A DNA stretch of 64,000 nucleotides from an uncultured Rhodospirillaceae bacterium (GCA_964528595.1 CAZGTM010000008.1:1133-65132); one strand, 5' to 3'. Counted from the stretch's first letter, positions 10,358 to 35,427 are shown. Made by a program: numbers and translations. The notes: generated by a model from the sequence alone, not told the origin.

Positions 10358-10380
10358 ACAGTAATTGACGAGTTTTTAAC

Positions 10381-12303: not shown

Positions 12304-12335
12304 CCATCGAGCCCGATCCGGGCTATATTCACGGC

Positions 12336-13109
12336 ATGACCAAGACGGCGAAAAAGCGGCTCGACCTCCTGCTGGTCGAGCGTGGTTTGGTGGAAAGCCG
12401 GGGTAAGGCGCAGGCCCTGATCATGGCGGGCAAGGTCTATTCGGCCGAGAACCGCCTCGACAAACCCGGCCACCGCATGCCCGAAAACCAGGCCTTGTCG
12501 GTGCGTGGCCAGGACCATCCCTGGGTCAGCCGGGGCGGTCTCAAGCTCGCCCATGGCCTCGACTTTTTCGACATTGATGCAAGTGGCGCGACCGCCGTCG
12601 ACGTCGGTGCGTCGACCGGCGGCTTCACCGACGTGTTGCTGCAGTCGGGCGCGAAAAAGGTCTACGCGGTGGATGTCGGCCATGGCCAGTTGGCCTGGAA
12701 GCTCAGAACGGATGAGCGGGTCGTCGTTTTGGAAAAAACCAACGCCCGGTACCTGACGGCTGACCAGATTCCCGATCCGGTCGACCTGATCGTCTGCGAC
12801 GCCAGCTTTATCGGGCTTCGCACCGTCCTGCCCGCCGCCATGGTGCTGGCCCGGCCGGCGGGGCATCTGGTGGCGCTGATCAAGCCGCAGTTCGAAGTCG
12901 GCAAGGGCCGCGTCGGAAAGGGCGGCGTGGTGCGCGATCCCGAACTGCACCGGGAGGTCTGCGACACCATTTCGGAATGGATCGGGGGCTTGCCGGATTG
13001 GCGGGTCCTGGGCCTGACCGAAAGCCCGATAAAAGGTCCCGAGGGCAACATCGAGTTCTTGATCGCAGCGCAAAAGACCACAGGTATAGACGATGCTTCC
13101 CCTGCATGA
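12336..13109 (+). CDS. tlyA: TlyA-family rRNA 2'-O-methyltransferase (hemolysin A homolog)
   Basis: N-terminal S4 domain (KKRLDLLLVERGLVESRGKAQALIMAG) and an FtsJ-like MTase domain (VDVGASTGGFTD). Conserved position after dxs. Confidence 0.85.
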   Translation: MTKTAKKRLDLLLVERGLVESRGKAQALIMAGKVYSAENRLDKPGHRMPENQALSVRGQDHPWVSRGGLKLAHGLDFFDIDASGATAVDVGASTGGFTDVLLQSGAKKVYAVDVGHGQLAWKLRTDERVVVLEKTNARYLTADQIPDPVDLIVCDASFIGLRTVLPAAMVLARPAGHLVALIKPQFEVGKGRVGKGGVVRDPELHREVCDTISEWIGGLPDWRVLGLTESPIKGPEGNIEFLIAAQKTTGIDDASPA

Positions 13110-13974
13110 CGACAATCCGACCCATATCCGGCCCTATGTCACCTGGACGATAATCGGGCTCTGCGTCGTCATCTTTCTCTGGCAGTTCTCCCTGGATGCA
13201 CGCGGCGGCCGTGAGGCGGTCTATGGACTGGGACTAATTCCGTCGGTGCTGTTCGGCGAAAATCACTTGCCGCCGCAGCTGGCGCATGCGCCCGCCATCC
13301 TCACGCCCATCACCTCAATGTTCCTGCACGGCGGCTGGATGCATCTGATCGGCAACATGCTTTTTCTCTGGGTGTTCGGCAATAACATCGAAGACGCCAT
13401 GGGACATTGGCGCTACATCGGATTCTATCTTCTCGCCGGTCTCGCCGCGGCCGGCGGGCAAATCGCCTCCGACCCGTCGTCCGTCATTCCCATGATCGGC
13501 GCCAGCGGCGCCATCTCCGGCGTGCTCGGCGCCTATTTGATGTTGTACCCGAAAGCCCGCGTTTTGATGCTGGTCTGGCTTGGTTTCCTGGTCACGACCA
13601 TCCGCGTGCCGGCCCTGATCGTCCTCGGGCTTTGGATCGTCATGCAGATATTCAACGCCACGCTGTCGGGCGGCGGTGGAGGCGGCGTCGCCTGGTGGGC
13701 TCACATCGGCGGCTTTATCGCCGGCATGGCGCTCATCCCGTTGTTCCGCCACAAGCACATTCCATTGTTCGGACACGGCTATGAAGGCCACGGGCGCGGG
13801 GGCTTTGCACGGAGCGGCGACGATCCCTCGCGCAAACCGTTCGTGCTGCGCACCGGCGGCGAGCGGCCTGCCGCCTCGACGGCCGCCAAGGGGCCCTGGA
13901 AGCGGCGTAAGAACACGCCGCCGGGACCGCCGCCCCGCCGTAACAAACCCGGACCCTGGGGGCGTCGCCGCTAG
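13093..13974 (+). CDS. Rhomboid family intramembrane serine protease
   Basis: Catalytic GASGAISG serine motif and the downstream AHIGG histidine. Multi-TM. Pro/Arg-rich C-terminal tail. Confidence 0.8.
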   Translation: MLPLHDDNPTHIRPYVTWTIIGLCVVIFLWQFSLDARGGREAVYGLGLIPSVLFGENHLPPQLAHAPAILTPITSMFLHGGWMHLIGNMLFLWVFGNNIEDAMGHWRYIGFYLLAGLAAAGGQIASDPSSVIPMIGASGAISGVLGAYLMLYPKARVLMLVWLGFLVTTIRVPALIVLGLWIVMQIFNATLSGGGGGGVAWWAHIGGFIAGMALIPLFRHKHIPLFGHGYEGHGRGGFARSGDDPSRKPFVLRTGGERPAASTAAKGPWKRRKNTPPGPPPRRNKPGPWGRRR

Positions 13975-17842: not shown

Positions 17843-18691
17843 TCATACCGCTTCTTGCGCTCCCGCCTGCCGCCCGATGGCGGCGTTAATCTCCGCGCCG
17901 AACAGAAAAACCGCGCCCAAAAGATAGAAAAAGATCATGGCGATAACCACGCCGCCCAGGCTGCCGTAGGTGATGTCGTAATTGTTGAAGTGGCCCAGAT
18001 AGAGCGTAAAGGAGGCCGCCGCAGCGCCCCACAGGACCAAGGTGAGCAGCGCGCCGGGCAGGATCGCCTTCCAGGGCGGCCGCCGGGCGGGCAGCATGCC
18101 GTACAGCGCGCTCAGCAACAACAGGACGAAGGCGACGCCGATCAGGCTGCGGAACGGGCCAAGCTCAAACGCCGGCAAATCGATGAAGCCCAATTGCGCC
18201 GCCGCGTCCTGGCAGAGGATGGGAGCCAGGATCAGCACCGTCACGCTGATCACGATCAGGACGCCGCCGACCATCACCAGGCCGATGCTTTCCAGTCGCC
18301 GCCGCCAAAAGGGGATCGGGGATTTTTCCCCGAAGGCGCGCTCGATACCGGCCCTGGCGCCCTCCACAGCCGAGGCCGCCGTCCAGACAGCGCCCGCCAT
18401 ACCGATGGTCAGCAGGCCGCCGCGCAATTCCTGCAGGACCTGCAGGATCGGTTCCTCGAACACGGCCGCCACGTGTTCGGGCATGTTCTCCAGCACGAAG
18501 GCGACGATCATGGTGCCGGCCTCGGTATTACCGATGAAGCCGGCCAGGGCGACGATGAAAATGAGGAAGGGAAAGAGGGTCAAGAGCGTCATGAAAGCGA
18601 GGTGACCGGCGATCAGGGGGGCGCCATTGCGGATGAATCCCACAAAAGCGGAGCCCAGTACCCGGAATGCGCTGTGACCGATGCGGAGCAT
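17843..18691 (-). CDS. YihY/BrkB family inner-membrane protein (formerly called RNase BN)
   Basis: 282 aa, multi-TM. N-terminal FRVLGSAFVGFIRNGAPLIAGHLAFMTLLTLFPFL characteristic of YihY/BrkB. Confidence 0.75.
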   Translation of the reverse strand: MLRIGHSAFRVLGSAFVGFIRNGAPLIAGHLAFMTLLTLFPFLIFIVALAGFIGNTEAGTMIVAFVLENMPEHVAAVFEEPILQVLQELRGGLLTIGMAGAVWTAASAVEGARAGIERAFGEKSPIPFWRRRLESIGLVMVGGVLIVISVTVLILAPILCQDAAAQLGFIDLPAFELGPFRSLIGVAFVLLLLSALYGMLPARRPPWKAILPGALLTLVLWGAAAASFTLYLGHFNNYDITYGSLGGVVIAMIFFYLLGAVFLFGAEINAAIGRQAGAQEAV

Positions 18692-18800
18692 GAGCGTGAG
18701 AGTAGCGCCTCCCGGCTGTCAAACCCATACCTTTGGGCGTTTTACATTTTGTCGAATAGCGAATGGCGGTACTCTGCCAGCCTTCAAAACGGAGCTTGGA

Positions 18801-19481
18801 ATGACAGAGTACAATTACGCCGATTTCAGCCTGAAGCGCGAGATGCCGCCGTTCGATGAATTCCGCGACCGGCTGCACGCCGGGGAACGGGCGCCGGACT
18901 TCCCGCTGGAGGACCTTGCCAGCGGCGCGACCGTGCAACTGCGGGACTTGTGGAAAAAAGGCCCGGCGATCATCGAGTTCGGCTCCTTCACCTGACCGTA
19001 CTGCGCCATGGCGGCCGAGGCGATGGACGACCTCGCCGACCGCCTGGCGGACCGAGCCGTGAGCTCGGCCTTTCTGTACACTCGTGAAGCCCATCCCGGC
19101 GAAAACTACCGCCACCACACCTCGATGGACGGCAAGCGCGCCAACGCGAGGGCCTTTCAGGAGCATGTGAACCTGAGGCGGCCGATCCTGCTGGACGATC
19201 TCGAAGGCACGGCCCACAAGGCCTACGGTATCCTGCCGAACATGACCTGGATCATCGGCAAGGGCGGCATGATCCTTTACAAGGCCGCCTGGACGGGCGT
19301 CGAAGATGTCGAAGACGCTTTCAACAGTCTGATGGACGGTCACGCCCGGCGCATCAAGGACCAACTGGTGCCTTTCTACAGCGAACGCTTCGCCTGGCGG
19401 ACGCGCGATGAGGACGGCTTCAAGGGCGGCCTGGAACGCGCCGGTCCGCAGGCCGTGTCGGACTTCTACGACAAGGAATAG
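18801..19481 (+). CDS. Candidate selenoprotein: thioredoxin-fold peroxiredoxin/deiodinase-like protein with in-frame TGA (Sec) at codon 18993-18995
   Basis: ORFs 18681..18995 and 19008..19481 share one frame and are separated only by a TGA. Read through, the product is ...APDFPLEDLASGATVQLRDLWKKGPAIIEFGSFT-U-PYCAMAAE... The TGA sits at the catalytic Cys position of the redoxin/deiodinase motif. ATG at 18801 has a GGAG RBS. Confidence 0.6.
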
Positions 19482-19544
19482 CAGGACGCTGTCGGACCGG
19501 GGTTAATTTCATTGAACAAATCGACCCTACCCCCCCCATCCTAT

Positions 19545-19567
19545 CCTTCCCCCGCCAGGGGGGAAGG
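19545..19567 (+). terminator. GC-rich hairpin after the selenoprotein gene (candidate terminator)
   Basis: CCTTCCCC-cgccag-GGGGAAGG perfect 8-bp stem. The downstream T-tract is weak. Confidence 0.4.
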
Positions 19568-19601
19568 AACTCACATTGGAAATTCGCCCAAACATTAAAA
19601 G

Positions 19602-19624
19602 CCCTCCCCCTTGACGGGGGAGGG
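19602..19624 (-). terminator. Rho-independent terminator for the minus-strand 3-HAO operon
   Basis: CCCTCCCCC-ttgac-GGGGGAGGG 9-bp stem. On the minus strand it is followed by CTTTTAATGTTT. Confidence 0.55.
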
Positions 19625-19687
19625 TTGGGTGGGGGTGGGGCCACAAGAACTAAATTGGGTTAGCTGATTTCAGCTCGTGGGTAGGAT

Positions 19688-20251
19688 TTACAATTGGACC
19701 CAGCCATCCGGCGGCGAGCCCTTGCCCGGATGCACGGTACCGCAGTTGGGACACTTGCGCGCTTCCTCGTCTTCGTGGAAGGCGTCGTAGATTTTCGGCA
19801 GGGCCGTGACGATGCCGCTGGGACCGCCGAGGGGCACTTCGATGCGGTGGACGCGGGCCTCGCACTCGAAGCAGTACCACTCGAAGCCTTCCTTCATGCC
19901 GTCCATGCGCGGGCTCTCGACGACGATGCCAACGGACCCTTCCTGCGGCCGTTGCGGCGCGTGGATGGTGTGCGACGGCATCATGAAGACCTCGCCCTCG
20001 CGGATCGGCACGTCATAGATCGCACCGTTGTCGGCGATCTTCAGCATCATGTCGCCCTTCACCTGGTAGAACCATTCCTCCACCGGGTCGTCGTGGAAGT
20101 CGACGCGCGTGTTGGGGCCGCCGACCACCATGACGATCATGCCGCTTTCGTCGTGCAGCAGCTTGTTGTTGACCGGCGGCGTCAGGGACGCCTGGTTGTC
20201 GGCAATCCATTGCTGGAAATTGAAGGGGATCAATGTCGGATGTAACGGCAT
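19688..20251 (-). CDS. nbaC: 3-hydroxyanthranilate 3,4-dioxygenase
   Basis: Cupin core: PFNFQQW, VDFHDDPVEEWFYQVKGDM, MPSHTIHAPQRP. C-terminal rubredoxin-like CxxC...CxxC (WYCFEC...CPNCG). Same length and motifs as characterised HAAO/NbaC. Confidence 0.9.
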   Translation of the reverse strand: MPLHPTLIPFNFQQWIADNQASLTPPVNNKLLHDESGMIVMVVGGPNTRVDFHDDPVEEWFYQVKGDMMLKIADNGAIYDVPIREGEVFMMPSHTIHAPQRPQEGSVGIVVESPRMDGMKEGFEWYCFECEARVHRIEVPLGGPSGIVTALPKIYDAFHEDEEARKCPNCGTVHPGKGSPPDGWVQL

Positions 20252-20288
20252 GGCGGAAACTCCCCCGGTCGATGATTACAGTTGAAAC

Positions 20289-21260
20289 CTATTCGGCGGC
20301 TATATCGTCCGTGACCAGACCGCAGCTTTCAAGGGCTATTTTTGTCCGGACCTTTTCGTCCTCCGTCAAATCGAGCATCGGCCGGCGCACCGGACCTCCG
20401 GCCTGGCCCAGCAATTCCTGCCAGTATTTCTGGTGCGCCTGCGGTTTGCCGCCGGGGCGGGTGCCTTTCAGGGCCTGGCGAACGGGTTCCAGGCTGTCGC
20501 GCACCGTCCGGGCTTCCTCGACGCGGCCGGCGAACGCGAGCTCGGTGTATTCATGCATGCGCCGGTCGGCCTTGGTCTGGATCAGATAAGGGGGGGAGGA
20601 GCAGAGGTAGAGCTGCCAGCCCAGTTCCACGATGTTGTCGAACCATTCATCCTCGGAGGCCGAACTCACCAGTATTTTGTCGCCGGCCAGGCGCGTGAGC
20701 TCGGCGTACATGTCGCGCGGCACGCTGTACTTGATGGCGACGATGTTGTCGAGATCGGCAATGCGGTTGCACAGTTCGGGGCTCATCAGATAACCGCTGT
20801 CGGGATGGCTCCACATGGCGATGCCGAGGCCGGTGCGCTCTGAGATGTAGCGGTAATATTCGTACAAGAGATCATCCCGATCCGCTACGAAATGGAGGAC
20901 GGGCGCATGGACGACGATGTAATCGGCGCCGACGTCCTCGGCATGCCGGGTCAGCTCGAGGACGGTATCCAGGTTCTGGTCTGACACCGACATGATGGTG
21001 TTGCCGGCATCACCGGTGGCCTCGACGGCAAGCTCGAACGTGCGCTTGCGTTCCTCAACGGACATCGAGAAAAATTCGCCCTGCTTGCCGGCGATGAACA
21101 GGCCCTCGATGCCGAGGTCCTCGATCCAGTGGCGGATGTTGGCGCGAAAACCGTCCTCGTCGATGGAAAGATCCGGTTTGAACGGGGTCAGCGCCGCCGC
21201 CCAGATGCCCTTCATGTTCTGCCGCGCATAAGCCTTGGCGTCCTGCTTGTCGTACTTCAT
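20289..21260 (-). CDS. Dihydrodipicolinate synthase/N-acetylneuraminate lyase family (class I aldolase, DapA-like)
   Basis: About 323 aa, TIM-barrel DHDPS-family signature. Start at the internal Met 21260 (MKYDKQD) preceded by GGAGGAG. It overlaps the stop of the upstream Mo-hydroxylase gene by 4 nt. Confidence 0.75.
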   Translation of the reverse strand: MKYDKQDAKAYARQNMKGIWAAALTPFKPDLSIDEDGFRANIRHWIEDLGIEGLFIAGKQGEFFSMSVEERKRTFELAVEATGDAGNTIMSVSDQNLDTVLELTRHAEDVGADYIVVHAPVLHFVADRDDLLYEYYRYISERTGLGIAMWSHPDSGYLMSPELCNRIADLDNIVAIKYSVPRDMYAELTRLAGDKILVSSASEDEWFDNIVELGWQLYLCSSPPYLIQTKADRRMHEYTELAFAGRVEEARTVRDSLEPVRQALKGTRPGGKPQAHQKYWQELLGQAGGPVRRPMLDLTEDEKVRTKIALESCGLVTDDIAAE

Positions 21261-23398
21261 CGATTTTTCTCCTCCGCGGCACGCATGGCGCGCCACACCC
21301 GTTCACTGGTGAGCGGCATGGCCAAATTTTCGACCCCCAGCGGGCTGAGGGCGTCCAGCACCGCGTTCAAGATCGCCGGCGGGGCGCCGATGGTTCCCGC
21401 CTCGCCGACGCCTTTGGCTCCCAGCAGATTAAAGGGCGACGGCGTTTCAAGCGAGCGCAGGCCGATTTCCGGCATATCATCGGCTCTCGGCAGGGCATAG
21501 TCCATCAGCGATCCCGTCAACAGCTGGCCGTCCTCATCGTATACGATACGCTCCATCATCGCCTCGCCCAGGCCCTGGGCGATGCCGCCCATCACCTGAC
21601 CCTCCAGCAACAGGGGATTGACGATGGTTCCGGCGTCATCGACACAGAATAGTCGCTCTACCGAGACGGTGCCGGTCTCCCGATCGACCGAAGCCGTCGC
21701 GACGTAGCAGCCGTTGCCCCAAGCCTCGCCCTCGTTGTGGTAGACCGCCTCCGCTTCCACCGCTTCACCGGGGCTGGCGCGTTGCGACAATTCCAAGGCC
21801 TCCCGGGCGGCCTGCAGCAGGGCGCTGCCGCCGATGGCCGTCGACCGGCTGGCCAGCGCCCCGATCCCGGCCGGCGAGGTTGCGCTATCGCCGAACAAGA
21901 CAGTGATTCGACCGGGATCGATCTCGAAAACGTCGGCGACGATCTGGGCGTAGGCGGTTTGCCGCGCCTGCCCCTGGGAACTTGATCCGGAGGCGGCGGT
22001 GATGGCGCCATCCGCCTCGACCCGCACCCGGGCGCTCTCCCAGCCTTGACCGCTGGGTTCGACATACGCCGAGATGCCGATACCGAACAGCTCTCCGGCA
22101 TCGCGCCGCCGCCGGCGTGACGCCTTCAGTTCGGTATACCCGCTTAATTCAGCCGCCGCTTCCAGGGTGGCCTCCAAATCGCCGGAATCGAGAACGCTGC
22201 CCGTCGTGTGGCGGTGGGGGAACCGGTCCTTGCCGACGACGTTCCGCCGGCGGATTTCCAGGGGGTCGAGGTCCAGCTTCCGGGCGGCGGCATCGACCAG
22301 CCGTTCCATCAGCAAAGCGGCTTCCGGCCGACCAGCGCCGCGATAGATGCCCACCGGCGCGGTATGGGAGCCATGGGCGGCGACATCGATGTCGACGGCG
22401 GCAATATCGTAGGGGCCCGGCAGTATACGCCCCGCGTTCCAGACCGGAACGGCGGCGCTGAAGGGCAGCCAATTGCCCAATGGACACCGGATTTGGGCCC
22501 GCACGGCCAGAAAACCACCCTCCTGTGAAAGTGCCAGTTCGCCCTGGGATTTCGCGCCCCGTCCGTGGCTGGCGCTCAACAGGTCCTCGGCGCGGCTGGC
22601 CACCCATTTGACACAGCACTTGAGTTTGCGGGCGGCGAAGGCGGTCAGAACTTCCTCGGGGTAAACGGACGCCTTCATGCCGAAAGCGCCGCCGACATCC
22701 GGCGCGACCACGCGGATTTGTTCTTCATCGAGGCCGATAATTTCGGCGATATTCCGGCGGGCGCGGTGCGGCGCCTGGCTGGTCGTCCACAGGGTGAGGG
22801 TGTCCCGGTCCTCGCGCCATTCGGCAACCATGCAGCGCGGCTCCATGGGGGAGGGAGCAAGGCGAGGGTGTTCGACCTCGACCTGCACCGTGGAAAACGC
22901 CGCCTCGAAGGCCGCGTCGCAATCGTTCGAGCGCCAATTTTTGGCAATCAAAGCTGTTTCGACGCCATCGCTTTCAAGTTCTTCCAGATCGGCGAAGATC
23001 AGTTCAGCCGCATCGGTTGCCGCCGCCTGGGTGTCCGCGATGACGGCGGCGATGGGTTGGCCGATCGCGGTAACCCTGTTATGCGCCAGAATTGAGGTCG
23101 GCGGAATGCGCATATCCTCGATGAGGGGGTTTACGGGAAGCGAGCCCAGACCGGCGACATCGGCACCACTGATGACGGCCACGACGCCCGGGAAATTGCG
23201 GGCGTCGTCGAGGTCGAGCGAATTGATTTCGGCATGCGCCAGGGGACTGCGGAGAAAGGCGAGGTAGAGGCATCCCGGCGGCGTGACGTCGCCGACGAAC
23301 CGACCGCGCCCCGTCAACAACCGGTCGTCTTCCCTTCGTTTGACGGGCCGCCCGACCCAGTTACCGGGTTGTTCCGAATTATCGGCCAATGCAGTCAA
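21257..23398 (-). CDS. Xanthine dehydrogenase/aldehyde oxidase family molybdopterin-binding large subunit (CoxL-like)
   Basis: 713 aa. The N-terminal GRPVKRREDDRLLTGRGRFVGD motif and Ald_Xan_dh_C-type domains. No 2Fe-2S or FAD small-subunit genes are adjacent. Confidence 0.85.
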   Translation of the reverse strand: MTALADNSEQPGNWVGRPVKRREDDRLLTGRGRFVGDVTPPGCLYLAFLRSPLAHAEINSLDLDDARNFPGVVAVISGADVAGLGSLPVNPLIEDMRIPPTSILAHNRVTAIGQPIAAVIADTQAAATDAAELIFADLEELESDGVETALIAKNWRSNDCDAAFEAAFSTVQVEVEHPRLAPSPMEPRCMVAEWREDRDTLTLWTTSQAPHRARRNIAEIIGLDEEQIRVVAPDVGGAFGMKASVYPEEVLTAFAARKLKCCVKWVASRAEDLLSASHGRGAKSQGELALSQEGGFLAVRAQIRCPLGNWLPFSAAVPVWNAGRILPGPYDIAAVDIDVAAHGSHTAPVGIYRGAGRPEAALLMERLVDAAARKLDLDPLEIRRRNVVGKDRFPHRHTTGSVLDSGDLEATLEAAAELSGYTELKASRRRRRDAGELFGIGISAYVEPSGQGWESARVRVEADGAITAASGSSSQGQARQTAYAQIVADVFEIDPGRITVLFGDSATSPAGIGALASRSTAIGGSALLQAAREALELSQRASPGEAVEAEAVYHNEGEAWGNGCYVATASVDRETGTVSVERLFCVDDAGTIVNPLLLEGQVMGGIAQGLGEAMMERIVYDEDGQLLTGSLMDYALPRADDMPEIGLRSLETPSPFNLLGAKGVGEAGTIGAPPAILNAVLDALSPLGVENLAMPLTSERVWRAMRAAEEKNR

Positions 23399-23436
23399 TT
23401 CCGTTACCGCCCAAAGATTGCGACCGACACCTTGCG

Positions 23437-24240
23437 TTATTGGTGATCGAGCCTCAAGCCCTTGATCTGAAGTTCCCCGGCGTTGCAGGGGGGCCGGTCC
23501 GGCTTGGCAGCGGCCCGGATCAGTTTCGGCGGCGGTGGAACTCCGGATATTTCGAGAATCAGTTTCCGTCGGATGGCGCGGGCAAAATCCTTGAAGCCAT
23601 CGGCCACGATAACGAAGGCGCCGGGGCCGCCGATAACGCAGTCCTCGAAATAAGCGTCCAGATTGAGTAATTGCGACAGGCGGTAGGGGCCGGGGCGCTG
23701 GTTGATGATGGGCAGACCGTTGATGGTGATGCCGGCGGACACGGCCCGGTCGCGGGCCGGCGCCACGACGTCTCCCTTGTTGTTCGGCCCGTCGCCGGAG
23801 ATGTCGATGATGCGACGGCGGGAGTCGAAGCCGTTGCCGTCAAAGCTCGGCGCCAGGGTATCGAGCAAGGCGCTGATCGACGTCCAGAATTCAGTTCGAA
23901 TTTGGGGTCGGCCGACGGCTTCGGCGAATCGGGCGGCACTTTTGGCATCCGAGAGTTCGGTCCAATTCACCAGAACCCGCTGGACGCCCGGCCCGGCCCA
24001 TTCGACGTAAGCCACGGCGATGCGCCCGAAGCGGCCGCTTCGAATGGCCGCGATGACGTCCCGGTGCCTGAGGGCATTGACGAAGCCCTGCCGTTGCAGT
24101 CTTGCTTCCTTGCGATCCATGCTGCCGGAAATATCCGCCGCCAGGATCAGCTCCAGATCAACCTGACGCGCCACGGCTGTCTGTCCGTCGGCAACCGTCC
24201 AGATCAAGGCAACGGCGGCAAGTAGAAATCGACCTTGCAT
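23437..24240 (-). CDS. Secreted von Willebrand factor A domain protein (DUF1194-like)
   Basis: Signal peptide MQGRFLLAAVALIWTVADGQTAVA and a MIDAS motif DISGSM. Start at the internal Met 24240. Confidence 0.65.
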   Translation of the reverse strand: MQGRFLLAAVALIWTVADGQTAVARQVDLELILAADISGSMDRKEARLQRQGFVNALRHRDVIAAIRSGRFGRIAVAYVEWAGPGVQRVLVNWTELSDAKSAARFAEAVGRPQIRTEFWTSISALLDTLAPSFDGNGFDSRRRIIDISGDGPNNKGDVVAPARDRAVSAGITINGLPIINQRPGPYRLSQLLNLDAYFEDCVIGGPGAFVIVADGFKDFARAIRRKLILEISGVPPPPKLIRAAAKPDRPPCNAGELQIKGLRLDHQ

Positions 24241-24277
24241 CAAGCACCTGTCCGCAATCCGGCGCCGCCGGCCGGGG

Positions 24278-25336
24278 CTATTTCTTCTTGAGGCCCTTTC
24301 GCACATCGTAATCGTTGCCCGGCGCCCAATCCTTCACCAGATGGGTGAACGCCTTGTCGTTTTCCGGCAGGACGATGCGCAGCGTCATATGCTGGTCGCC
24401 CCGCACACCCGTCTTGCGTTCGGCGACCCCCTTGCCCCGCAGGCGCAAGCGCGTGTTGGTGTTCGAGCCTTTCGGTACCGTGAGGCTGACCGGCCCGTCG
24501 ATGGTGGGAACCTCAATATGGGCGCCTAAAACGGCCTCCTGGATGGTGACCGGTAGTTCGACGTGGATGTCCTGACCGACCTGAACGAATACAGGGTGCG
24601 GGAGAATGTTGATTTCCACCAAGGCGTCGCCGGCGGGTTTGGCCCCGAGACCCGTCTTGGCCGCTTCGCCCATGCCCTTGAGGCGGATGATCTGACCTTC
24701 CTCCACGCCGGCGGGAACGGCGACGTAGACATCCTTGCCGTTCTTCAGCGTCAGCCGCTTCTTGCCGCCCTTGATGGCGTCCAACAGGCCGATTTCCAAC
24801 TGGTAGCGGTGGTCGCCTGCCTTGCCCTTCGGCTGGTCTTCCCGGCTTTCCTTTTTGCCGCGGAAAAACGGCTGAAAGATATCGCTGGCGGAAAATCCGC
24901 CGAAGCCGAAATTTTCGAATGCGGCCGCTTCGACCTTGGTTTGCTCGGACGCCGTTGCCGTCGCCTGCGGCGCCTCCGCACTGGCGGCGTTCGCCGCAGA
25001 AGCGGTCGCCGAGGCCTTTTCCGATTGTCCGCGGTTGCCGGTCGATTTGCGTTGAGCGCTGCGGGGTTTGGCCCTGGAGCGTTTTGCGCCCGATTGGCGG
25101 AAATTGGTCTGGTGTTTACCCGATGCGTCGATTTCGCCCCGGTCGAAACGGCTGCGCTGGCGGGCGTCGCCCAACAGGTGGTAGGCCGCGGCGACTTCCT
25201 TGAAGCGTTCGGCGGCCAGCACGTCGCCTTGTTGGCGGTCCGGGTGCCATTGCTTGGCCAGCCGCCTGTAGCTTTGTTTGACCTCGGCCTGGCTCGCGCC
25301 GCGCGAAACGCCGAGGACTTCATAGGGATCTAGCAT
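24278..25336 (-). CDS. J-domain protein with DnaJ C-terminal substrate-binding domains (CbpA/DjlA-like co-chaperone)
   Basis: N-terminal J domain with HPD (YRRLAKQWHPDRQ). A Gly/Ala/Ser-rich linker. A C-terminal DnaJ_C region (GEAAKTGLGAKPAGDALVEINILPHPVF). Confidence 0.8.
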   Translation of the reverse strand: MLDPYEVLGVSRGASQAEVKQSYRRLAKQWHPDRQQGDVLAAERFKEVAAAYHLLGDARQRSRFDRGEIDASGKHQTNFRQSGAKRSRAKPRSAQRKSTGNRGQSEKASATASAANAASAEAPQATATASEQTKVEAAAFENFGFGGFSASDIFQPFFRGKKESREDQPKGKAGDHRYQLEIGLLDAIKGGKKRLTLKNGKDVYVAVPAGVEEGQIIRLKGMGEAAKTGLGAKPAGDALVEINILPHPVFVQVGQDIHVELPVTIQEAVLGAHIEVPTIDGPVSLTVPKGSNTNTRLRLRGKGVAERKTGVRGDQHMTLRIVLPENDKAFTHLVKDWAPGNDYDVRKGLKKK

Positions 25337-25510
25337 GGCGCGCCCACTTACCCCCTTGGTTTTGAGTTCAGGCGGGATGATGCGTGAGACGGTTCTGGTC
25401 GTATGTTAAGGCGGCATTTTACCGCTGCGAAGGTCATTTTCGCGTGTTGAATCATACCAAATTATTAACGCCTGTGGATTTGCCGGCGGCGGCGGCCCGA
25501 GACCCGGAAT

Positions 25511-28429
25511 TCAGGGCATTTTCTTGTTCTTTTCCCAGGATTCTGTAAGCCGTTGGGCGCCCACCAGTTCGTGGGGCAGCATTTCGGCGCGCAGTTCGCC
25601 AAGGAAGCGCTTGGCGGTCTGGTGTCCGTTGTCGGCCGCCAGCGACCACCAGAGATAGGCGCGGGCCAGATCCTCGTCCACGCCGGCGCCGTCGCGATAA
25701 AGCCCGCCGACATAGAACTGGGCGTCCGGATCGCCCTTTTCCGCCGCCGGTAGCCAAAGGTCCAGGGTGGCCTCGTAGTTGCGCGCGCGGTAAGCCAGCA
25801 GTCCGGCATCCAGAATTCCGGAGGGCGGCGGGGCGGAATTCGGTGACGTCGATACCGCAATGGTTTCCGGCGCCAGGGCGGCGGTACGCACGGATTTCCC
25901 ACCCGTTTCCAGTTCGTTGAAGCCACTGCCCGAACCCTCGGCGGCTTCCTTTATCTCTGCCGCCCGGGCCTCGGCCACGATGACCGGCGAGGGCGGTTTG
26001 GGCAGTGCGGGGGGCGTGGGTTTGGCGGCTTCAACCTTGGGCGCGTCCTGCTGTTCGGTTTCGTCGGTTGTGACCGAAGCGGGCGGCGGCGGCGCGGCGG
26101 CCGGTTTTTCCGCTGGCACCGACTTGTTCGCTTCGTCTATTAGGACCTGGGACGGCGGAACCGGTTCGGCGGGCAACGCGGCAGCCGTTTGCGTGCGGGC
26201 CTCCTCGACGAGGACCGGTGAGGGCGGTACGGCTTGGGGGGCGGCGGCCTTCAATCTTTCGGCTATTTCGGCCTTGCGCTTCTCTTCTTCGGCCTTCAAT
26301 TCCGCGGCGGCATCGGCCGCCGCCTGCCGTTTTGCCTCATCGGCTTCGCGCTTCTCCGCCTCGGCCCGCAATCTGGCGGCAACCTCGGCCTCGGCCTTCC
26401 GTTTCGCTTCTTCGGCTTTGCGCTGAACCTCGGCTTCCGCTTCCGCCTTGATACGGGCTTCTTCCGCCCTGCGTTTCCGCACCTCTTCTTCTTCGGCTTT
26501 GCGTTTGGCATCGGCGGCAAGTTGCTTTGCCGCTTCGGCCTTGCGCTTGGCTTCGGCTTCCGCCTCGGCTTCCGCCTTGAGGCGGGCGTAAAGTTCTTCG
26601 GCCCGGCGTTTTTCCTCAGCCAGGCGTTTTTCTTCTTCCTCCCGGCGTTTACGCTCGGCTTCCGCAACCGCCCGCGCTTTAGCCTCTTCCGCTGCCTTGC
26701 GTTTCTCCTCCGCCAGGCGCCGTGCGTCAGCTTCCCGCTTGGCCGCATCCGCCTTGGCTTTTTCCAGCGCTGCTACTTTCCGCCTGGCTTCGGCTTCCGC
26801 GGCAATTTTTTCGGCCGTGCGCGCCGCTTCCTCCGCCCGGACGCGCTCCTCCTCCTCGGCCTTCTTTTCGGCGGCAATGCGCGCCTTGGCTTTGAGGATT
26901 TGCAACTCGGCTTCCTTGCGCCGCTCCTCGGCTTCCTTACGCGCCGTTTCCGCCGCCTCTTCGATCAGGATGGGCGAGGGCACGGCTTGGCGTTTGGCGA
27001 TGGCGGCGGCGAGCTCCTGCTCGGCCTTGCGTGCCTCCGTTTCGGCTGATTTGGCGGCATTACGGACTTTTTCCGCTTCCGCGACGGCGATCTTGGCAAT
27101 CCGTTCCTGCTCGGCCAACAGGACTTCCGCCGCCTTGCGGCGTTCCTCCGCCTTGGCCACGGTCGCTTCGAGGTCCTTGCGTTTGCGTTCGGCCTCGGCA
27201 ATCGCGGCCTCGGCGGCACTGCGCCGGTTTTCGGCATCGATCCGGCGCTGTTCCGCTTCCTCGGCGGCCGTTTCGGCGGCAGTGCGCGCGACCTGGGCCC
27301 GAACCGCTTCCGTCGCCTTGCGTTCGGCTTCCTCCTGGGCAGCCAGGGCGGCGGCCTTTTCCTCTTCCAGTTTTGCCGCCGTCACTTCCGCCGCACGGCG
27401 GGCCGCCGCCGCCGCGGCTTCGGCGGCATTGCGGGCGGCCTGGGCGCGGGCGATATCGGCGGCTTTGCGGTCTTTCTCGGCTTTCGCGGCATCCTCGGCC
27501 GCCTTCAATTCCATGGCCCGGCGTTCAGCCTGGGTGACCTCGCTGGACTGCTGGGCGGCCGCCGCAACGCGGGTGGCTTCGTCCCTGGCGGCTTCCGCCT
27601 TGACGGCCTCGGCGCGCGCCGCCTCCGCCTTGGCGGCTTCTTCCTGCAACTTTTCTTCGGCCAGCCGTTTGGTGTCTTCTGCCAGTCGCTTGGCTTCCTC
27701 CGCCAGGCGTTTGGCTTCGGCTTTGCGGCGGATTTCAGCGGCGCGGCGTTCCGCTTCAGCCTGTTTGCGGGCGGTTTCCGCCTTGCGCGCCGCCTCGGCT
27801 GCCTCCGCCGCCTGCTTTTTCGCTTCGGCTGCGGCTTCGGTGGCGCGTTTTTCGGCTTCGCCGGAATCAGGCGGGGTATCGGTGGGTGCCGGTGTCACGC
27901 CCTTAGAGATCAGTAGGGCCAGCTTTTCCATTGCCTTGCGATTTCCCAGACGCGAGGCCTGGTAGTACCAACTCAGGGCGGTGACATCGCTTTTTTCGAC
28001 GCCGACGCCGTTTTCAAACATCAGGCCGAGGTTGTATTGCGCAATATGGTGGTTCTGTTTCGCCGCCCGCGTGAACCACTTGGCCGCTTCCTTGGGATCC
28101 TTGGAGGTGCCCTGGCCACGCAGATACATATTCCCGAGATTGGCCTGGGCCCGGGCAAAGCCTTGCTCGGCGGCTTTACGGTACCAGATCAGGGACTGCT
28201 TGAAATCCTTGGGTACGCCTTGGCCGACCCGGTAGAGGTGGCCGATGTTTCGTTGTGATGCCGGGTCGCCCTTTTCCGCCAGCGGCAGCCATTCCTTATA
28301 GGCCTTGGCGTAGTCGCCGATTTCATAGGCGGCGAGGCCGGCGGCAAAATCGGCGCGCGCCGGAGCTGCGGCGGCAAACGACAGCACCGCCGTAACAAGA
28401 AGGGCGTAAAGAAATCGTACTGAAGTCAC
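25511..28429 (-). CDS. Secreted Sel1-repeat protein with a long E/A/K/R-rich coiled-coil core and a Pro-rich segment
   Basis: 972 aa. A signal peptide, then N-terminal Sel1 repeats (GDPASQRNIGHLYRVGQGVPKDFKQSLIWYRKAAEQG...). About 570 aa of AEAKRLAEEAKRLAEDTKRLAEE-type low complexity, then a PPSPV Pro-rich stretch. C-terminal Sel1 repeats (GDPDAQFYVGGLYRDGAGVDEDLARAYLWW). Confidence 0.8.
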   Translation of the reverse strand: MTSVRFLYALLVTAVLSFAAAAPARADFAAGLAAYEIGDYAKAYKEWLPLAEKGDPASQRNIGHLYRVGQGVPKDFKQSLIWYRKAAEQGFARAQANLGNMYLRGQGTSKDPKEAAKWFTRAAKQNHHIAQYNLGLMFENGVGVEKSDVTALSWYYQASRLGNRKAMEKLALLISKGVTPAPTDTPPDSGEAEKRATEAAAEAKKQAAEAAEAARKAETARKQAEAERRAAEIRRKAEAKRLAEEAKRLAEDTKRLAEEKLQEEAAKAEAARAEAVKAEAARDEATRVAAAAQQSSEVTQAERRAMELKAAEDAAKAEKDRKAADIARAQAARNAAEAAAAAARRAAEVTAAKLEEEKAAALAAQEEAERKATEAVRAQVARTAAETAAEEAEQRRIDAENRRSAAEAAIAEAERKRKDLEATVAKAEERRKAAEVLLAEQERIAKIAVAEAEKVRNAAKSAETEARKAEQELAAAIAKRQAVPSPILIEEAAETARKEAEERRKEAELQILKAKARIAAEKKAEEEERVRAEEAARTAEKIAAEAEARRKVAALEKAKADAAKREADARRLAEEKRKAAEEAKARAVAEAERKRREEEEKRLAEEKRRAEELYARLKAEAEAEAEAKRKAEAAKQLAADAKRKAEEEEVRKRRAEEARIKAEAEAEVQRKAEEAKRKAEAEVAARLRAEAEKREADEAKRQAAADAAAELKAEEEKRKAEIAERLKAAAPQAVPPSPVLVEEARTQTAAALPAEPVPPSQVLIDEANKSVPAEKPAAAPPPPASVTTDETEQQDAPKVEAAKPTPPALPKPPSPVIVAEARAAEIKEAAEGSGSGFNELETGGKSVRTAALAPETIAVSTSPNSAPPPSGILDAGLLAYRARNYEATLDLWLPAAEKGDPDAQFYVGGLYRDGAGVDEDLARAYLWWSLAADNGHQTAKRFLGELRAEMLPHELVGAQRLTESWEKNKKMP
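26150..27860 (-). repeat. Low-complexity coding repeat (GC-rich GCn/GAn codon reiteration encoding E/A/K/R)
   Basis: Reiterated gcggc/ttcgg/cttgg units. They generate many overlapping spurious ORFs on both strands in the ORF track. Confidence 0.7.
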
Positions 28430-34090: not shown

Positions 34091-34264
34091 CCGCCGGAGA
34101 AATCGGCGTGGTTTCCCTTGATTTAGGCGGCTCCTTGTATCCGCCGGACCCATGCAATTTCTGCGGATTTGAATTGCAAAAAAATCACACGTCGTAATTC
34201 CGAATTAGGCCTATATGGGGCTCAAGACATTACTTGTTCTGGCTCATTTCAGAGGAGACCCATC

Positions 34265-34501
34265 ATGGCCGGTCAGAATGAAATCAACCCGGTAACGCCT
34301 TTCTCCGGATTTGTCGTGACCACCAGTGAAATCATTGCCCCCGTAGCGAGCTCGATCGCCAACGGTTTGATTTACCTATCCGGAAAGGTCACCGAATATC
34401 TTAACCGCGACCATGCCATGAGTGCACCGGCGCCCGCGCCGCACGTCTCCCTGGTCGTCACCCCCGGCAATTTTGTGACGGACGCGTTTACGCGCCGCTA
34501 G
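34265..34501 (+). CDS. Hypothetical small protein (78 aa), no recognisable family
   Basis: ATG 34265 is preceded by GAGGAGACC at ideal spacing. The ORF is followed 20 nt later by a canonical terminator. The longer ORF from 34169 lacks an RBS. Confidence 0.45.
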   Translation: MAGQNEINPVTPFSGFVVTTSEIIAPVASSIANGLIYLSGKVTEYLNRDHAMSAPAPAPHVSLVVTPGNFVTDAFTRR

Positions 34502-34521
34502 ATAGTCGCAAATCGAAAGAA

Positions 34522-34552: not shown

Positions 34553-34571
34553 GGAGTGGCCTCAGGCCCGA

Positions 34572-35423: not shown

Positions 35424-35427
35424 GGCT

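What the first reader, a model, noticed from the sequence alone, without database searches (positions are those of the whole stretch)
19688..24240. Unusual operon: secreted VWA protein, Mo-hydroxylase large subunit (no small subunits), DapA-like aldolase, 3-hydroxyanthranilate 3,4-dioxygenase
Four minus-strand genes are tightly packed. The Mo-hydroxylase large subunit and the DapA-like gene overlap by 4 nt. The DapA-like and 3-HAO genes are 38 nt apart, with a terminator after 3-HAO. Only 3-HAO (NbaC/HAAO) belongs to a known tryptophan/2-nitrobenzoate route. The usual partners are missing: ACMS decarboxylase, the aminomuconate enzymes, kynureninase. Instead there is a DHDPS-family aldolase and a CoxL/XdhB-like molybdopterin subunit that has no adjacent 2Fe-2S or FAD subunit genes. 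This could be a non-canonical branch, for example hydroxylation of a quinolinate/picolinate-like N-heterocycle formed from ACMS, with aldolase cleavage of a downstream product. It could equally be a mis-grouped set of genes.
Basis: partly seen in the sequence, partly recalled or inferred. Interest (0 to 1): 0.6.

Follow-up and report, generated by a model that had tools for sequence, protein, structure and literature searches.

The report
Undescribed 3-hydroxyanthranilate breakdown gene module
Three tightly packed genes (a molybdenum oxidoreductase subunit, an unusual DapA-like enzyme and a 3-hydroxyanthranilate ring-opening dioxygenase) form the core of a gene module found in hundreds of bacterial species, and it probably breaks down this tryptophan-derived compound by a route nobody has described.

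Summary
On the minus strand lie DUF1194/VWA (23437-24240), a CoxL/XDH-type Mo large subunit (21257-23398), a DHDPS-family gene (20289-21260, ATGA overlap with the Mo gene) and a bona fide 3-HAO (19688-20251), followed by a terminator. The 64-kb window has no CoxS/CoxM, ACMSD or kynurenine-pathway genes.

Synteny shows the last three genes are not mis-grouped. The DHDPS-like protein is a very conserved subfamily (>70% identity in at least 548 species). In 67 non-redundant loci, 3-HAO lies nearby in 57. The gene just upstream is either this Mo subunit (26 loci) or one specific NAD-aldehyde dehydrogenase (29 loci), never both (p=1e-9). Frequent further partners are LysR, an AspDH homologue, a formamidase-like hydrolase and a transporter. 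ACMSD does not appear among the conserved partner genes. DUF1194 is not part of the module.

Best reading: an uncharacterised, ACMSD-independent 3-hydroxyanthranilate catabolic module, in which the Mo enzyme oxidises an aldehyde intermediate and takes its FeS/FAD subunits in trans. The DHDPS-like enzyme keeps the Schiff-base Lys but has lost the catalytic Tyr and the Ser/Thr motif, and probably processes the ring-opened product. The chemistry is inferred.

The parts
19688..20251 (-). 3-hydroxyanthranilate 3,4-dioxygenase (NbaC/HAAO type), 187 aa
   Evidence: Pfam PF06052 6.8e-45. NCBIfam NF009763 239 bits (cut-off 220) and TIGR03037 211 bits (cut-off 146). Aligns end to end with C. metallidurans HAO 1YFU (1.2e-53); the Fe-ligand, substrate-binding and Cys4 positions are conserved.
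20289..21260 (-). Divergent DHDPS/NAL-family protein, 323 aa: the hub of the conserved module. Not a DapA.
   Evidence: Pfam PF00701 1.8e-34; no NCBIfam equivalog reaches its cut-off. Homologues are 72-96% identical in at least 548 species. Lys177 aligns with the Schiff-base Lys of N-acetylneuraminate lyase, but Trp150 replaces the catalytic Tyr and Lys59-Gln60 replace the Ser-Thr of GSTGE.
21257..23398 (-). Xanthine-dehydrogenase/CoxL-family molybdopterin large subunit, 713 aa (TTG start; alternative TTG at 23389), with no FeS or FAD subunit genes nearby
   Evidence: Pfam Ald_Xan_dh_C, MoCoBD_1 and MoCoBD_2. Best NCBIfam match is glyceraldehyde dehydrogenase alpha, 562 bits, below the 790 cut-off. 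Loop IYRGAGR (no Cys, so not a CO dehydrogenase); Gln208, GGAFGMK and Glu666 are invariant. dN/dS is 0.15-0.18 against close relatives. Stop and start overlap the next gene as ATGA.
23437..24240 (-). DUF1194 (VWA-like) protein with signal-like N-terminus. A co-directional neighbour, not part of the conserved module.
   Evidence: Pfam PF06707 1.4e-72. DISGS motif and hydrophobic N-terminus seen in the sequence. Found next to the module only in the window, L001 and L007.
24278..25336 (-). DnaJ/CbpA-like co-chaperone, co-directional and 37 nt upstream of DUF1194. Possibly the first gene of the transcription unit; not part of the conserved module.
   Evidence: Pfam DnaJ + DnaJ_C. The only sigma70-like match in the 18500-26000 scan lies upstream, at 25478-25451. 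The same order occurs in L001.
19602..19624 (-). Intrinsic-terminator-like hairpin after 3-HAO (CCCTCCCCC-GTCAA-GGGGGAGGG followed by CTTTTAATGT)
   Evidence: Terminator scan; sequence.
19545..19567 (-). Second, similar GC-rich hairpin (CCTTCCCCC-CTGGC-GGGGGAAGG), lying between the convergent genes
   Evidence: Sequence. The motif YCCCCCN5GGGGGR occurs only at these two places in the window; 0.07 matches are expected by chance.

Best explanation
The Mo large subunit, the DHDPS-like gene and 3-HAO form the minimal core of a widespread, so far undescribed bacterial module for breaking down 3-hydroxyanthranilate (3-HAA) without ACMS decarboxylase.

Proposed steps:
1. 3-HAO opens the ring to 2-amino-3-carboxymuconate semialdehyde (ACMS). 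The enzyme identity is shown by sequence; the activity is not measured.
2. The divergent DHDPS-family enzyme keeps the Schiff-base lysine but has a rebuilt active site. It acts on ACMS or a close derivative by deamination and/or C-C cleavage and yields a short semialdehyde (inferred).
3. The Mo subunit is the catalytic part of an aldehyde oxidoreductase that oxidises an aldehyde of this pathway. It does the job that one specific NAD-aldehyde dehydrogenase does in the sister version of the cluster (inferred from gene displacement). It must take its 2Fe-2S and FAD subunits from genes elsewhere in the genome (inferred).

Fuller versions of the cluster add a LysR regulator, an aspartate-dehydrogenase homologue, a kynurenine-formamidase-like hydrolase and an ABC or TRAP transporter. 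The window carries a stripped-down version with no regulator gene next to it. DUF1194 and the DnaJ-like gene are only neighbours.
For: Conserved synteny:
- The DHDPS-like subfamily is 72-96% identical in at least 548 species representatives.
- Among 67 non-redundant loci, 3-HAO lies within 10 kb in 57, mostly directly downstream.

Gene displacement:
- The Mo subunit sits directly upstream in 26 loci. One ALDH orthologue (63-100% identical to the Bosea copy) is present in 29. Both together occur in 0, neither in 12 (Fisher p=1e-9).
- ALDHs found in the Mo-type loci are 27-38% paralogues.
- Chelatococcus (L087) and Chelativorans (L046) carry the Bosea-type operon LysR<, X, DHDPS, HAO, LivK-type ABC transporter (with a formamidase-like hydrolase inside the operon in L087, upstream in L046) and AspDH, with the Mo subunit where Bosea has the ALDH.
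- The two types are interleaved on a tree of the DHDPS-like protein.

Coupling:
- The Mo stop overlaps the DHDPS-like start by 4 or 1 nt in 14 of 24 loci.
- In Sneathiella the DHDPS-like gene sits inside the Mo operon: L, DHDPS, CoxG, CoxS, CoxM.
- All three further Mo homologues looked up are followed by the DHDPS-like gene.

The Mo subunit looks functional:
- MoCo-binding motifs and the catalytic Glu are invariant.
- dN/dS is 0.15-0.18.
- Its best curated relative is an aldehyde-oxidising enzyme.
- The ALDH it alternates with is closest to SSADH/KGSADH-type semialdehyde dehydrogenases, not to 2-hydroxymuconate-semialdehyde dehydrogenases.

3-HAO has all defining residues.

In the fully enumerated Bosea-type and Sneathiella-type operons every gene falls into a named family, and none of these is ACMSD.

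Precedent from general knowledge: DHDPS-family enzymes that release a semialdehyde, which a dehydrogenase then oxidises. Examples are KdgD + KGSADH, Pyr4H2C deaminase + KGSADH, and archaeal KDG aldolase + Mo glyceraldehyde oxidoreductase.
Against: - No biochemical or genetic data exist for any member. Seven full-text searches found no paper on this cluster.
- The substrate of the DHDPS-like enzyme is unknown. It lacks the catalytic Tyr of the family, so even aldolase-type chemistry is uncertain.
- No FeS or FAD subunit gene lies in the 64-kb window, and none lies near 23 of 26 Mo-type loci. How electrons leave the Mo centre is unexplained.
- The closest solved relatives include quinoline 2-oxidoreductase, and the active-site loop is Qor-like, so heterocycle hydroxylation is not excluded.
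- Mutual exclusivity could reflect two alternative routes rather than one reaction.
- Many of the ALDH-type loci come from one genus (Bosea), so the counts are not phylogenetically independent.
- ACMSD could be encoded elsewhere in these genomes.
- In the window the module has no regulator or transporter, so its role there could differ (detoxification, NAD supply).
Confidence: 0.55

Rival explanations
1. ACMS cyclises to quinolinate (or a picolinate-like compound). The Mo enzyme hydroxylates this N-heterocycle, and the DHDPS-like enzyme cleaves a later ring-opened product.
For: Quinoline 2-oxidoreductase and 6-hydroxypseudooxynicotine dehydrogenase are among the closest solved homologues, and the loop YRGAGR resembles Qor's YRGVG. 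Some related loci (L058, L067, L081) carry a Qdo-like 3-hydroxy-4-quinolone dioxygenase (3IBT, 2.4e-79) and an FAD monooxygenase, so N-heterocycles do enter this pathway upstream.
Against: An NAD-dependent aldehyde dehydrogenase cannot hydroxylate a pyridine ring, yet it replaces the Mo subunit at the same operon position in 29 loci while every other partner stays the same. The clusters hold no hydroxypyridine-processing enzymes (decarboxylase, 2,5-dihydroxypyridine-type dioxygenase, maleamate enzymes). The best curated family match is an aldehyde oxidoreductase.
Confidence: 0.15
2. The Mo large subunit is a non-functional or moonlighting remnant in this lineage, because it has lost its FeS/FAD partners. 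Only the DHDPS-like gene and 3-HAO matter here.
For: No CoxS/CoxM lies within 19 kb on one side or 40 kb on the other. The Mo gene evolves about three times faster than its two partners: 75% against 95% amino-acid identity to L001, and dN/dS 0.18 against 0.05. Six loci have the DHDPS-like gene and 3-HAO with neither the Mo subunit nor the ALDH.
Against: The reading frame is intact, and the MoCo-binding motifs and catalytic Glu666 are invariant. dN/dS of 0.15-0.18 means clear purifying selection, similar to neighbouring DUF1194 and TrmA. Translational coupling is retained. The orphan state is the norm for this subfamily across many genera (23 of 26 loci), which argues for subunits supplied in trans rather than decay.
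Confidence: 0.1
3. The genes are functionally unrelated neighbours. 3-HAO simply makes quinolinate for NAD synthesis, and the other two genes belong to other processes.
For: In the window the genes sit among housekeeping genes (aroC, fabI, pdxH, dxs) with no regulator or transporter. Bacterial 3-HAO is known to serve NAD biosynthesis in some species (general knowledge).
Against: 3-HAO accompanies the DHDPS-like gene in 57 of 67 loci spanning Alpha-, Beta- and Gammaproteobacteria, usually directly downstream with gaps mostly under 50 nt. It is usually under a LysR regulator with a transporter, which is a catabolic layout.
Confidence: 0.05

Closest known systems
Canonical bacterial 3-hydroxyanthranilate / 2-nitrobenzoate lower pathway (NbaC-NbaD-NbaE-NbaF..., the kynurenine lower pathway of Burkholderia/Cupriavidus)
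   Same: It starts with the same enzyme, 3-HAO/NbaC, with all catalytic residues conserved. It includes an aldehyde oxidation step and is typically a regulated catabolic operon.
   Different: There is no ACMS decarboxylase, no 2-aminomuconate deaminase (RidA family), and no 4-oxalocrotonate decarboxylase, hydratase or DmpG-type aldolase. In their place are a divergent DHDPS-family enzyme, an SSADH-like ALDH or a Mo oxidoreductase, and often an AspDH homologue.
DHDPS-family enzyme plus semialdehyde dehydrogenase pairs: KdgD + KGSADH (glucarate), Pyr4H2C deaminase + KGSADH (hydroxyproline), archaeal KDG aldolase + Mo glyceraldehyde oxidoreductase (non-phosphorylative Entner-Doudoroff pathway)
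   Same: A Schiff-base DHDPS-fold enzyme is encoded next to an aldehyde-oxidising enzyme. In the archaeal case that enzyme is also an XDH-family Mo enzyme, and it is the best curated match of the window's Mo subunit.
   Different: Sequence identity to any characterised DHDPS-family member is low (best PDB E-values 1e-22 to 1e-26). The catalytic Tyr and the Ser/Thr carboxylate-binding pair are replaced. The partner is an aromatic ring-cleavage dioxygenase, not a sugar-acid or proline enzyme.
Form II CoxL-like / quinoline 2-oxidoreductase-type Mo hydroxylases (heterotrimers L+M+S)
   Same: The same three Pfam domains, the catalytic Glu, the Gln and the GGxFGxK motif, and a YRGxGR loop without the CO-dehydrogenase Cys.
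   Different: The protein is about 75 residues shorter through family-wide deletions. It is usually encoded without M and S subunits (23 of 26 loci) and is translationally coupled to a DHDPS-like gene.
Metazoan ASPDH = 2-aminomuconate reductase (bioRxiv 10.64898/2026.06.05.730449)
   Same: An AspDH-family protein is linked to 3-HAO and the kynurenine lower pathway. In the bacterial clusters an AspDH homologue co-occurs with 3-HAO in 34 of 57 loci.
   Different: The window itself has no AspDH. The bacterial cluster protein (checked in the Sneathiella copy) keeps the catalytic His at the prokaryotic aspartate-dehydrogenase position, not the shifted position that the preprint ties to 2-aminomuconate reduction. 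The preprint does not treat bacterial clusters.

Membership tests
3-hydroxyanthranilate 3,4-dioxygenase (NbaC/HAAO) | Score above the curated equivalog cut-off | tested here: met
   NF009763: 239 bits against a cut-off of 220. TIGR03037: 211 bits against 146.
3-hydroxyanthranilate 3,4-dioxygenase (NbaC/HAAO) | Cupin Fe(II) ligands (His51, Glu57, His95 of 1YFU), substrate-binding Arg47, Arg99 and Glu110, and the C-terminal Cys4 site | tested here: met
   The alignment to 1YFU shows DFHDDP, VEEWFYQ, HTIHAPQRP, TRVD, VVES, WYCFEC and KCPNCG matching the corresponding segments. The residue numbers are from memory of the published structure.
3-hydroxyanthranilate 3,4-dioxygenase (NbaC/HAAO) | Converts 3-HAA to ACMS | not testable with these tools
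   Needs an enzyme assay.
DapA (4-hydroxy-tetrahydrodipicolinate synthase) | Curated equivalog score, catalytic Tyr133, the Thr44-Thr45 pair of GTTGE, and Arg138 | tested here: not met
   TIGR00674: 80 bits against a cut-off of 206. Trp150 aligns with the catalytic Tyr, GKQGE replaces G[ST][ST]GE, and Ser155 sits five residues after that position, where DapA has Arg138.
DHDPS/NAL superfamily (class I Schiff-base aldolase fold, PF00701) | Full-length Pfam match and a conserved Schiff-base lysine | tested here: met
   PF00701 1.8e-34, covering 2-286 of 289 profile positions. Invariant Lys177 in AIKYS aligns with the Lys of N-acetylneuraminate lyase in GVKF.
DHDPS/NAL superfamily | Catalytic Tyr (Tyr133 in DHDPS, Tyr137 in NAL) as proton relay | tested here: not met
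   Invariant Trp150 occupies that column in all 16 aligned members; His152 is invariant two residues on.
Xanthine dehydrogenase / CoxL-family Mo hydroxylase, large subunit | Ald_Xan_dh_C + MoCoBD_1 + MoCoBD_2 domains, the Mo-site Gln, the GGxFGxK motif, and the catalytic Glu near the C-terminus | tested here: met
   for the domains. Q208, G236-K242 and E666 are invariant in 14 orthologues and align with the CoxL/Qor equivalents.
Xanthine dehydrogenase / CoxL-family Mo hydroxylase, holoenzyme | Adjacent 2Fe-2S (CoxS-like) and FAD (CoxM-like) subunit genes | tested here: not met
   None in the 64-kb window. Present near only 3 of 26 orthologous loci. Whether they are encoded elsewhere in the genome could not be tested.
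Aerobic CO dehydrogenase (form I CoxL) | Active-site loop AYxCSFR with the Cu-binding Cys; curated score | tested here: not met
   The loop is IYRGAGR. TIGR02416: 459 bits against a cut-off of 991.
Archaeal glyceraldehyde dehydrogenase alpha subunit | Curated equivalog score | tested here: not met
   NF041018 is the best match but scores 562 bits against a cut-off of 790.
Canonical nba / kynurenine lower-pathway operon | ACMS decarboxylase and aminomuconate enzymes encoded with 3-HAO | tested here: not met
   Absent from the window and from the enumerated related operons.
DUF1194 (VWA-like) | Pfam match; conserved association with the module | tested here: inconclusive
   Family membership is met (PF06707, 244 bits). 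Association with the module is not met: it is seen only in the window, L001 and L007.

The most novel reading that the evidence does not exclude
The module could be a quinolinate synthase run in reverse. The DHDPS-like enzyme would hydrate ACMS and cleave its C3-C4 bond, releasing the aspartate-derived half as iminoaspartate/2-aminofumarate (or oxaloacetate + NH3) and the other half as a C3 aldehyde (malondialdehyde or malonate semialdehyde). The cluster's aspartate dehydrogenase would reduce iminoaspartate to L-aspartate. The Mo enzyme or the SSADH-like ALDH would oxidise the C3 aldehyde. All seven carbons and the nitrogen of 3-HAA would reach central metabolism with no decarboxylase.

This reading gives each conserved partner its native chemistry. 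The AspDH (Sneathiella copy) keeps the prokaryotic catalytic His position. The ALDH is of the short-semialdehyde type. The extra Lys59 in the carboxylate-binding motif could bind the 3-carboxylate. It is inference only.
Probability: 0.2. Interest if true: 0.8.

Novelty: new variant of a known kind. Interest (0 to 1): 0.62.

Why it matters
3-Hydroxyanthranilate is the branch point between NAD synthesis and complete oxidation of tryptophan. The only bacterial lower pathway on record goes through ACMS decarboxylase.

A second route, present in hundreds of species (Bosea, Rhizobium, Mesorhizobium, Bradyrhizobium, Stappia, Ruegeria, Sneathiella and marine Rhodospirillales) and built around an unusually conserved DHDPS-fold enzyme with a rebuilt active site, would:
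- add a new enzyme function to a well-studied superfamily;
- explain a large set of proteins now annotated as 'dihydrodipicolinate synthase family', 'aspartate dehydrogenase' and 'CO dehydrogenase large subunit';
- give a rare natural case of a Mo oxidoreductase and an NAD dehydrogenase swapping at one pathway step.

It also bears on the 2026 finding that animal ASPDH works in the kynurenine pathway. Bacteria link the same family to 3-HAO, perhaps with different chemistry. Orphan CoxL-like large subunits are common and unexplained, and this subfamily offers a defined pathway in which to study how they obtain electron-transfer partners.

Tried and rejected
1. The Mo subunit as truncated (713 aa against gene calls of 774-782 aa): rejected. 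Orthologues measured from the conserved RRED motif are about 700-720 aa, and the shortening relative to CoxL/Qor comes from family-wide deletions.
2. The Mo subunit as a decaying pseudogene: rejected (dN/dS 0.15-0.18).
3. DUF1194 as a CoxE-like VWA maturation factor for the Mo enzyme: rejected. It has a signal-like N-terminus and no conserved synteny with the module.
4. ALDH and the Mo subunit as merely co-occurring: the first clustering seemed to show seven loci with both. Identity analysis showed those ALDHs are unrelated paralogues, 27-38% identical.
5. My first greedy ORF caller picked antisense shadow ORFs in these GC-rich loci and under-counted the DHDPS-like gene and 3-HAO. I redid it with a codon-position GC rule and cross-checked with tblastn.
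6. Literature: seven full-text searches found no paper on this cluster. The GapMind paper does not mention 3-HAA. A Ruegeria transcriptome paper only lists SPO1774.
7. The cluster AspDH as a 2-aminomuconate reductase like human ASPDH: not favoured, because the His sits at the prokaryotic AspDH position in the Sneathiella copy. This was not tested properly, as no human sequence was at hand.
8. Rfam and tRNA scans of the window found nothing.
9. A SECIS-like fold after the in-frame TGA at 52601 is no more stable than shuffled sequence.
10. Searching whole genomes for the missing CoxS/CoxM was not possible.


Full report
**What is in the window.**

Five co-directional minus-strand genes run from 25336 to 19688 with very short spacers:
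- a DnaJ/CbpA-like gene (24278-25336);
- DUF1194 (23437-24240; signal-like N-terminus and a DISGS metal-site motif);
- a xanthine-dehydrogenase/CoxL-family molybdopterin large subunit (21257-23398, TTG start, 713 aa);
- a DHDPS-family gene (20289-21260);
- 3-hydroxyanthranilate 3,4-dioxygenase (3-HAO, 19688-20251).

The Mo gene's TGA overlaps the ATG of the DHDPS-like gene (ATGA). The DHDPS-like stop and the 3-HAO start are 37 nt apart, with a GGGGGAG ribosome-binding site. A 9-bp GC-rich hairpin with a T-run follows 3-HAO at 19624-19602. Pfam and NCBIfam confirm every family assignment. The only addition is that the DnaJ-like gene may belong to the same transcript.

No CoxS, CoxM, CoxG, AspDH, ACMSD or kynurenine-pathway gene occurs anywhere in the 64 kb (tblastn with the Sneathiella cluster proteins; Pfam of the other coding-like ORFs).

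**Is the grouping real?**

I used the DHDPS-like protein as the anchor. It belongs to a remarkably conserved subfamily. The best 120 database hits are 74-100% identical and come from Sneathiella, Pelagibius, Ferrovibrionaceae and many metagenomes.

I fetched 80 loci with 10-kb flanks and analysed them in two ways: tblastn with reference proteins and de novo ORF clustering. Among 67 non-redundant loci with at least 4 kb on both sides:
- 3-HAO is present in 57, mostly directly downstream;
- an orthologue of the window's Mo subunit is directly upstream in 26;
- a LysR regulator, an AspDH-family protein (38 loci), an alpha/beta hydrolase and either a LivK-type ABC or a TRAP transporter are frequent.

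DUF1194 accompanies the module only in the window and its two nearest relatives (L001, L007), so it is a neighbour and not a member. The Mo stop overlaps the DHDPS-like start by 4 or 1 nt in 14 of 24 loci. Three further Mo homologues, picked from a protein search, are each followed by the DHDPS-like gene. The trio is thus a conserved module, and the mis-grouped reading is rejected for it.

**The key comparative result.**

In Bosea, Bradyrhizobium, Rhizobium, Mesorhizobium, Arenicellales and others, the position upstream of the DHDPS-like gene (or the end of the same operon) holds a 477-aa NAD-dependent aldehyde dehydrogenase. All these ALDHs are 63-100% identical to each other. They occur only in loci without the Mo subunit. 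The ALDHs that happen to lie in Mo-type loci are 27-38% paralogues.

The contingency is 26 loci with the Mo subunit only, 29 with the ALDH only, 0 with both and 12 with neither (Fisher p=1e-9). Chelatococcus caeni (L087) and Chelativorans (L046) carry the full Bosea-type operon with the Mo subunit exactly where Bosea has the ALDH. On a neighbour-joining tree of the DHDPS-like protein the two types are interleaved, which suggests several independent swaps (the tree has no support values).

The simplest reading is non-orthologous displacement: the Mo enzyme and the ALDH catalyse the same step, an aldehyde-to-acid oxidation. Two further points fit this reading. The Mo subunit's best curated relative is archaeal glyceraldehyde dehydrogenase alpha (562 bits, below cut-off). 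The ALDH is closest to succinate- and ketoglutarate-semialdehyde dehydrogenases rather than to 2-hydroxymuconate-semialdehyde dehydrogenases. The latter point hints that the substrate is a short semialdehyde made after C-C cleavage, rather than ACMS itself.

**The Mo subunit.**

It is not a CO dehydrogenase: the active-site loop is IYRGAGR, with no Cys. It is not truncated either. Orthologues are about 700-720 aa, and the roughly 75-residue difference from CoxL/Qor comes from deletions shared by the whole subfamily. Gln208, GGAFGMK and the catalytic Glu666 are invariant.

Against two close relatives, its dN/dS is 0.18 and 0.15. This is three times that of the DHDPS-like gene (0.05) and 3-HAO (0.05), but far below 1. 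So the gene is functional but less constrained.

CoxS and CoxM genes lie near only 3 of 26 orthologous loci. In Sneathiella the order is L, DHDPS-like, CoxG, CoxS, CoxM, with the DHDPS-like gene embedded in the Mo operon. Curvivirga keeps CoxG only. The missing small subunits are therefore typical of this subfamily. Where these genomes encode the electron-transfer subunits could not be tested.

**The DHDPS-like enzyme.**

It matches PF00701 over its full length, but no curated equivalog. Its best solved relatives, N-acetylneuraminate lyases and DapA, are distant (E 1e-22 to 1e-26).

The profile alignment shows three things:
- Lys177 sits at the Schiff-base position;
- an invariant Trp150 replaces the catalytic Tyr, with an invariant His152 two residues on;
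- Lys59-Gln60 replace the Ser/Thr pair that binds the pyruvate carboxylate.

It is therefore a member of the fold family but not a DapA, and its active site has been rebuilt.

**3-HAO and the upstream funnel.**

3-HAO passes both equivalog cut-offs. It conserves the Fe ligands, the substrate-binding Arg/Glu and the Cys4 site of the C. metallidurans enzyme.

Several related loci add enzymes that would produce 3-HAA:
- an alpha/beta hydrolase with an HGGYW motif, whose solved relatives include kynurenine formamidase (4E11, 1.7e-13);
- in Rhizobium and Mesorhizobium, an FAD monooxygenase plus a close homologue of 1H-3-hydroxy-4-oxoquinoline 2,4-dioxygenase (3IBT, 2.4e-79). On an 8-hydroxy-4-quinolone this enzyme would yield N-formyl-3-HAA (inference).

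This supports 3-HAA as the hub metabolite, fed by variable funnels.

**Mechanism.**

Shown: gene identities, conserved synteny, the displacement pattern, purifying selection and the active-site changes.

Inferred: 3-HAO makes ACMS. The DHDPS-like enzyme processes ACMS or its oxidised form. The Mo enzyme or the ALDH oxidises a pathway aldehyde.

The most economical specific scheme is a reverse of quinolinate-synthase logic. The C3-C4 bond of ACMS is hydrated and cleaved by a retro-aldol reaction, giving iminoaspartate (or oxaloacetate + NH3) and a C3 aldehyde. AspDH reduces iminoaspartate to aspartate. The ALDH or Mo enzyme oxidises the C3 aldehyde.

This scheme gives every partner its native chemistry. 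The cluster AspDH (Sneathiella copy) keeps the catalytic His at the prokaryotic aspartate-dehydrogenase position. A June 2026 preprint shows that human ASPDH, whose His is shifted by two residues, is a 2-aminomuconate reductase. I rate this specific scheme at about 0.2, and the general module reading at about 0.55.

**Comparison with the known, and novelty.**

The canonical bacterial route from 3-HAA uses ACMS decarboxylase, aminomuconate-semialdehyde dehydrogenase, a RidA-type deaminase and the 4-oxalocrotonate branch. Apart from 3-HAO itself, none of these is found here or in the enumerated related operons.

The closest functional analogies are pairs of a DHDPS-family enzyme and a semialdehyde dehydrogenase: KdgD/KGSADH, Pyr4H2C deaminase/KGSADH, and archaeal KDG aldolase with Mo glyceraldehyde oxidoreductase (general knowledge).

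Seven full-text searches found no description of this cluster. I classify it as a new variant of a known kind: an aromatic ring-cleavage catabolic operon with a new enzyme set. The window's copy is a stripped-down form with no regulator, transporter or AspDH, set among housekeeping genes.

**Limits.**

- There are no experimental data.
- ACMSD and the CoxS/CoxM genes could lie elsewhere in these genomes.
- The counts include many Bosea species.
- The tree is a simple NJ tree.
- The residue numbers for reference enzymes are from memory.

Noticed in passing
window 52178-53308 (+): One reading frame is interrupted by a single TGA at 52601-52603. The TGA falls exactly at the first redox-Cys position of a thioredoxin-fold motif (FLATWASW*GCRADL), and the Pfam AhpC-TSA/Redoxin matches are split across the two halves. 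This is either a selenocysteine redoxin-like protein or a pseudogene. A hairpin follows the TGA but is no more stable than shuffled sequence (z=0.27).
   Followed up: partly
window 19545-19567 and 19602-19624: Two similar GC-rich hairpins (CCTTCCCCC-N5-GGGGGAAGG and CCCTCCCCC-N5-GGGGGAGGG) sit 35 nt apart between the convergent 3-HAO gene and a 157-aa ORF. The motif occurs nowhere else in the window; 0.07 matches are expected by chance.
   Followed up: partly
L058, L067, L081 (Rhizobium/Mesorhizobium), about 2.5-4.5 kb upstream of the DHDPS-like gene: An FAD monooxygenase, a close homologue of the cofactor-free 1H-3-hydroxy-4-oxoquinoline 2,4-dioxygenase Qdo (3IBT, 2.4e-79) and a formamidase-like hydrolase precede the ALDH, DHDPS-like and 3-HAO genes. 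This suggests a funnel from an 8-hydroxy-4-quinolone (related to xanthurenate or 4,8-dihydroxyquinoline) into 3-HAA.
   Followed up: partly
L088 (Curvivirga) 13096-13560; L005 (Sneathiella-like) 10968-12733: In Sneathiella, CoxG, CoxS and CoxM follow the DHDPS-like gene in the same operon. Curvivirga keeps only CoxG after the DHDPS-like gene, with no CoxS or CoxM within 10 kb.
   Followed up: no
L023 9147-10004 and 11574-13259: In one Rhodospirillaceae MAG, the gene that overlaps the DHDPS-like start by 4 nt is a Peptidase_C26/glutamine-amidotransferase-like amidase instead of the Mo subunit or the ALDH. A GMC oxidoreductase lies convergent to 3-HAO.
   Followed up: no
L054 and L065, 11.5-14.3 kb: In two Rhodospirillales/Stellaceae MAGs, an acyl-CoA-dehydrogenase-fold protein (Pfam Acyl-CoA_dh_2; possibly a flavin monooxygenase) and a 517-aa protein with no significant domain follow 3-HAO. 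They might make 3-HAA from anthranilate. In L065 the DHDPS-like gene is split into two ORFs (10001-10645 and 10703-10981), either a frameshift or an assembly error.
   Followed up: no
L029, L033, L036, L044, L056, L057, L070 (Binatia / 'Syntrophobacterales' MAGs): DHDPS-like proteins 70-74% identical to the window's occur without 3-HAO, the Mo subunit or the ALDH within 10 kb. They sit next to a LuxR-type response regulator, a predicted multi-pass membrane protein (by eye; not run through Pfam) and an unannotated ~460-aa signal-peptide protein, a different and unexplained context.
   Followed up: no
window 25511-28429 (-): A 972-aa secreted Sel1-repeat protein has terminal Sel1 repeats flanking about 700 aa of Ala/Glu/Lys/Arg-rich low-complexity sequence. 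This produces a strong local AT skew of -0.56.
   Followed up: no
window 34000-44400: A stretch of lower GC (0.53-0.57, against about 0.63 elsewhere) holds a Pot-like ABC transporter, a DsbD-like membrane protein, a 599-aa TPR protein with a weak adenylate/guanylate-cyclase match and several ORFs with no Pfam match. It may be horizontally acquired.
   Followed up: no
window 19008-19481 (+): A 157-aa ORF with coding-like codon composition, convergent to 3-HAO, has no Pfam match. It is conserved in the two closest relatives (cluster c39; a 152-aa gene call in L001).
   Followed up: no
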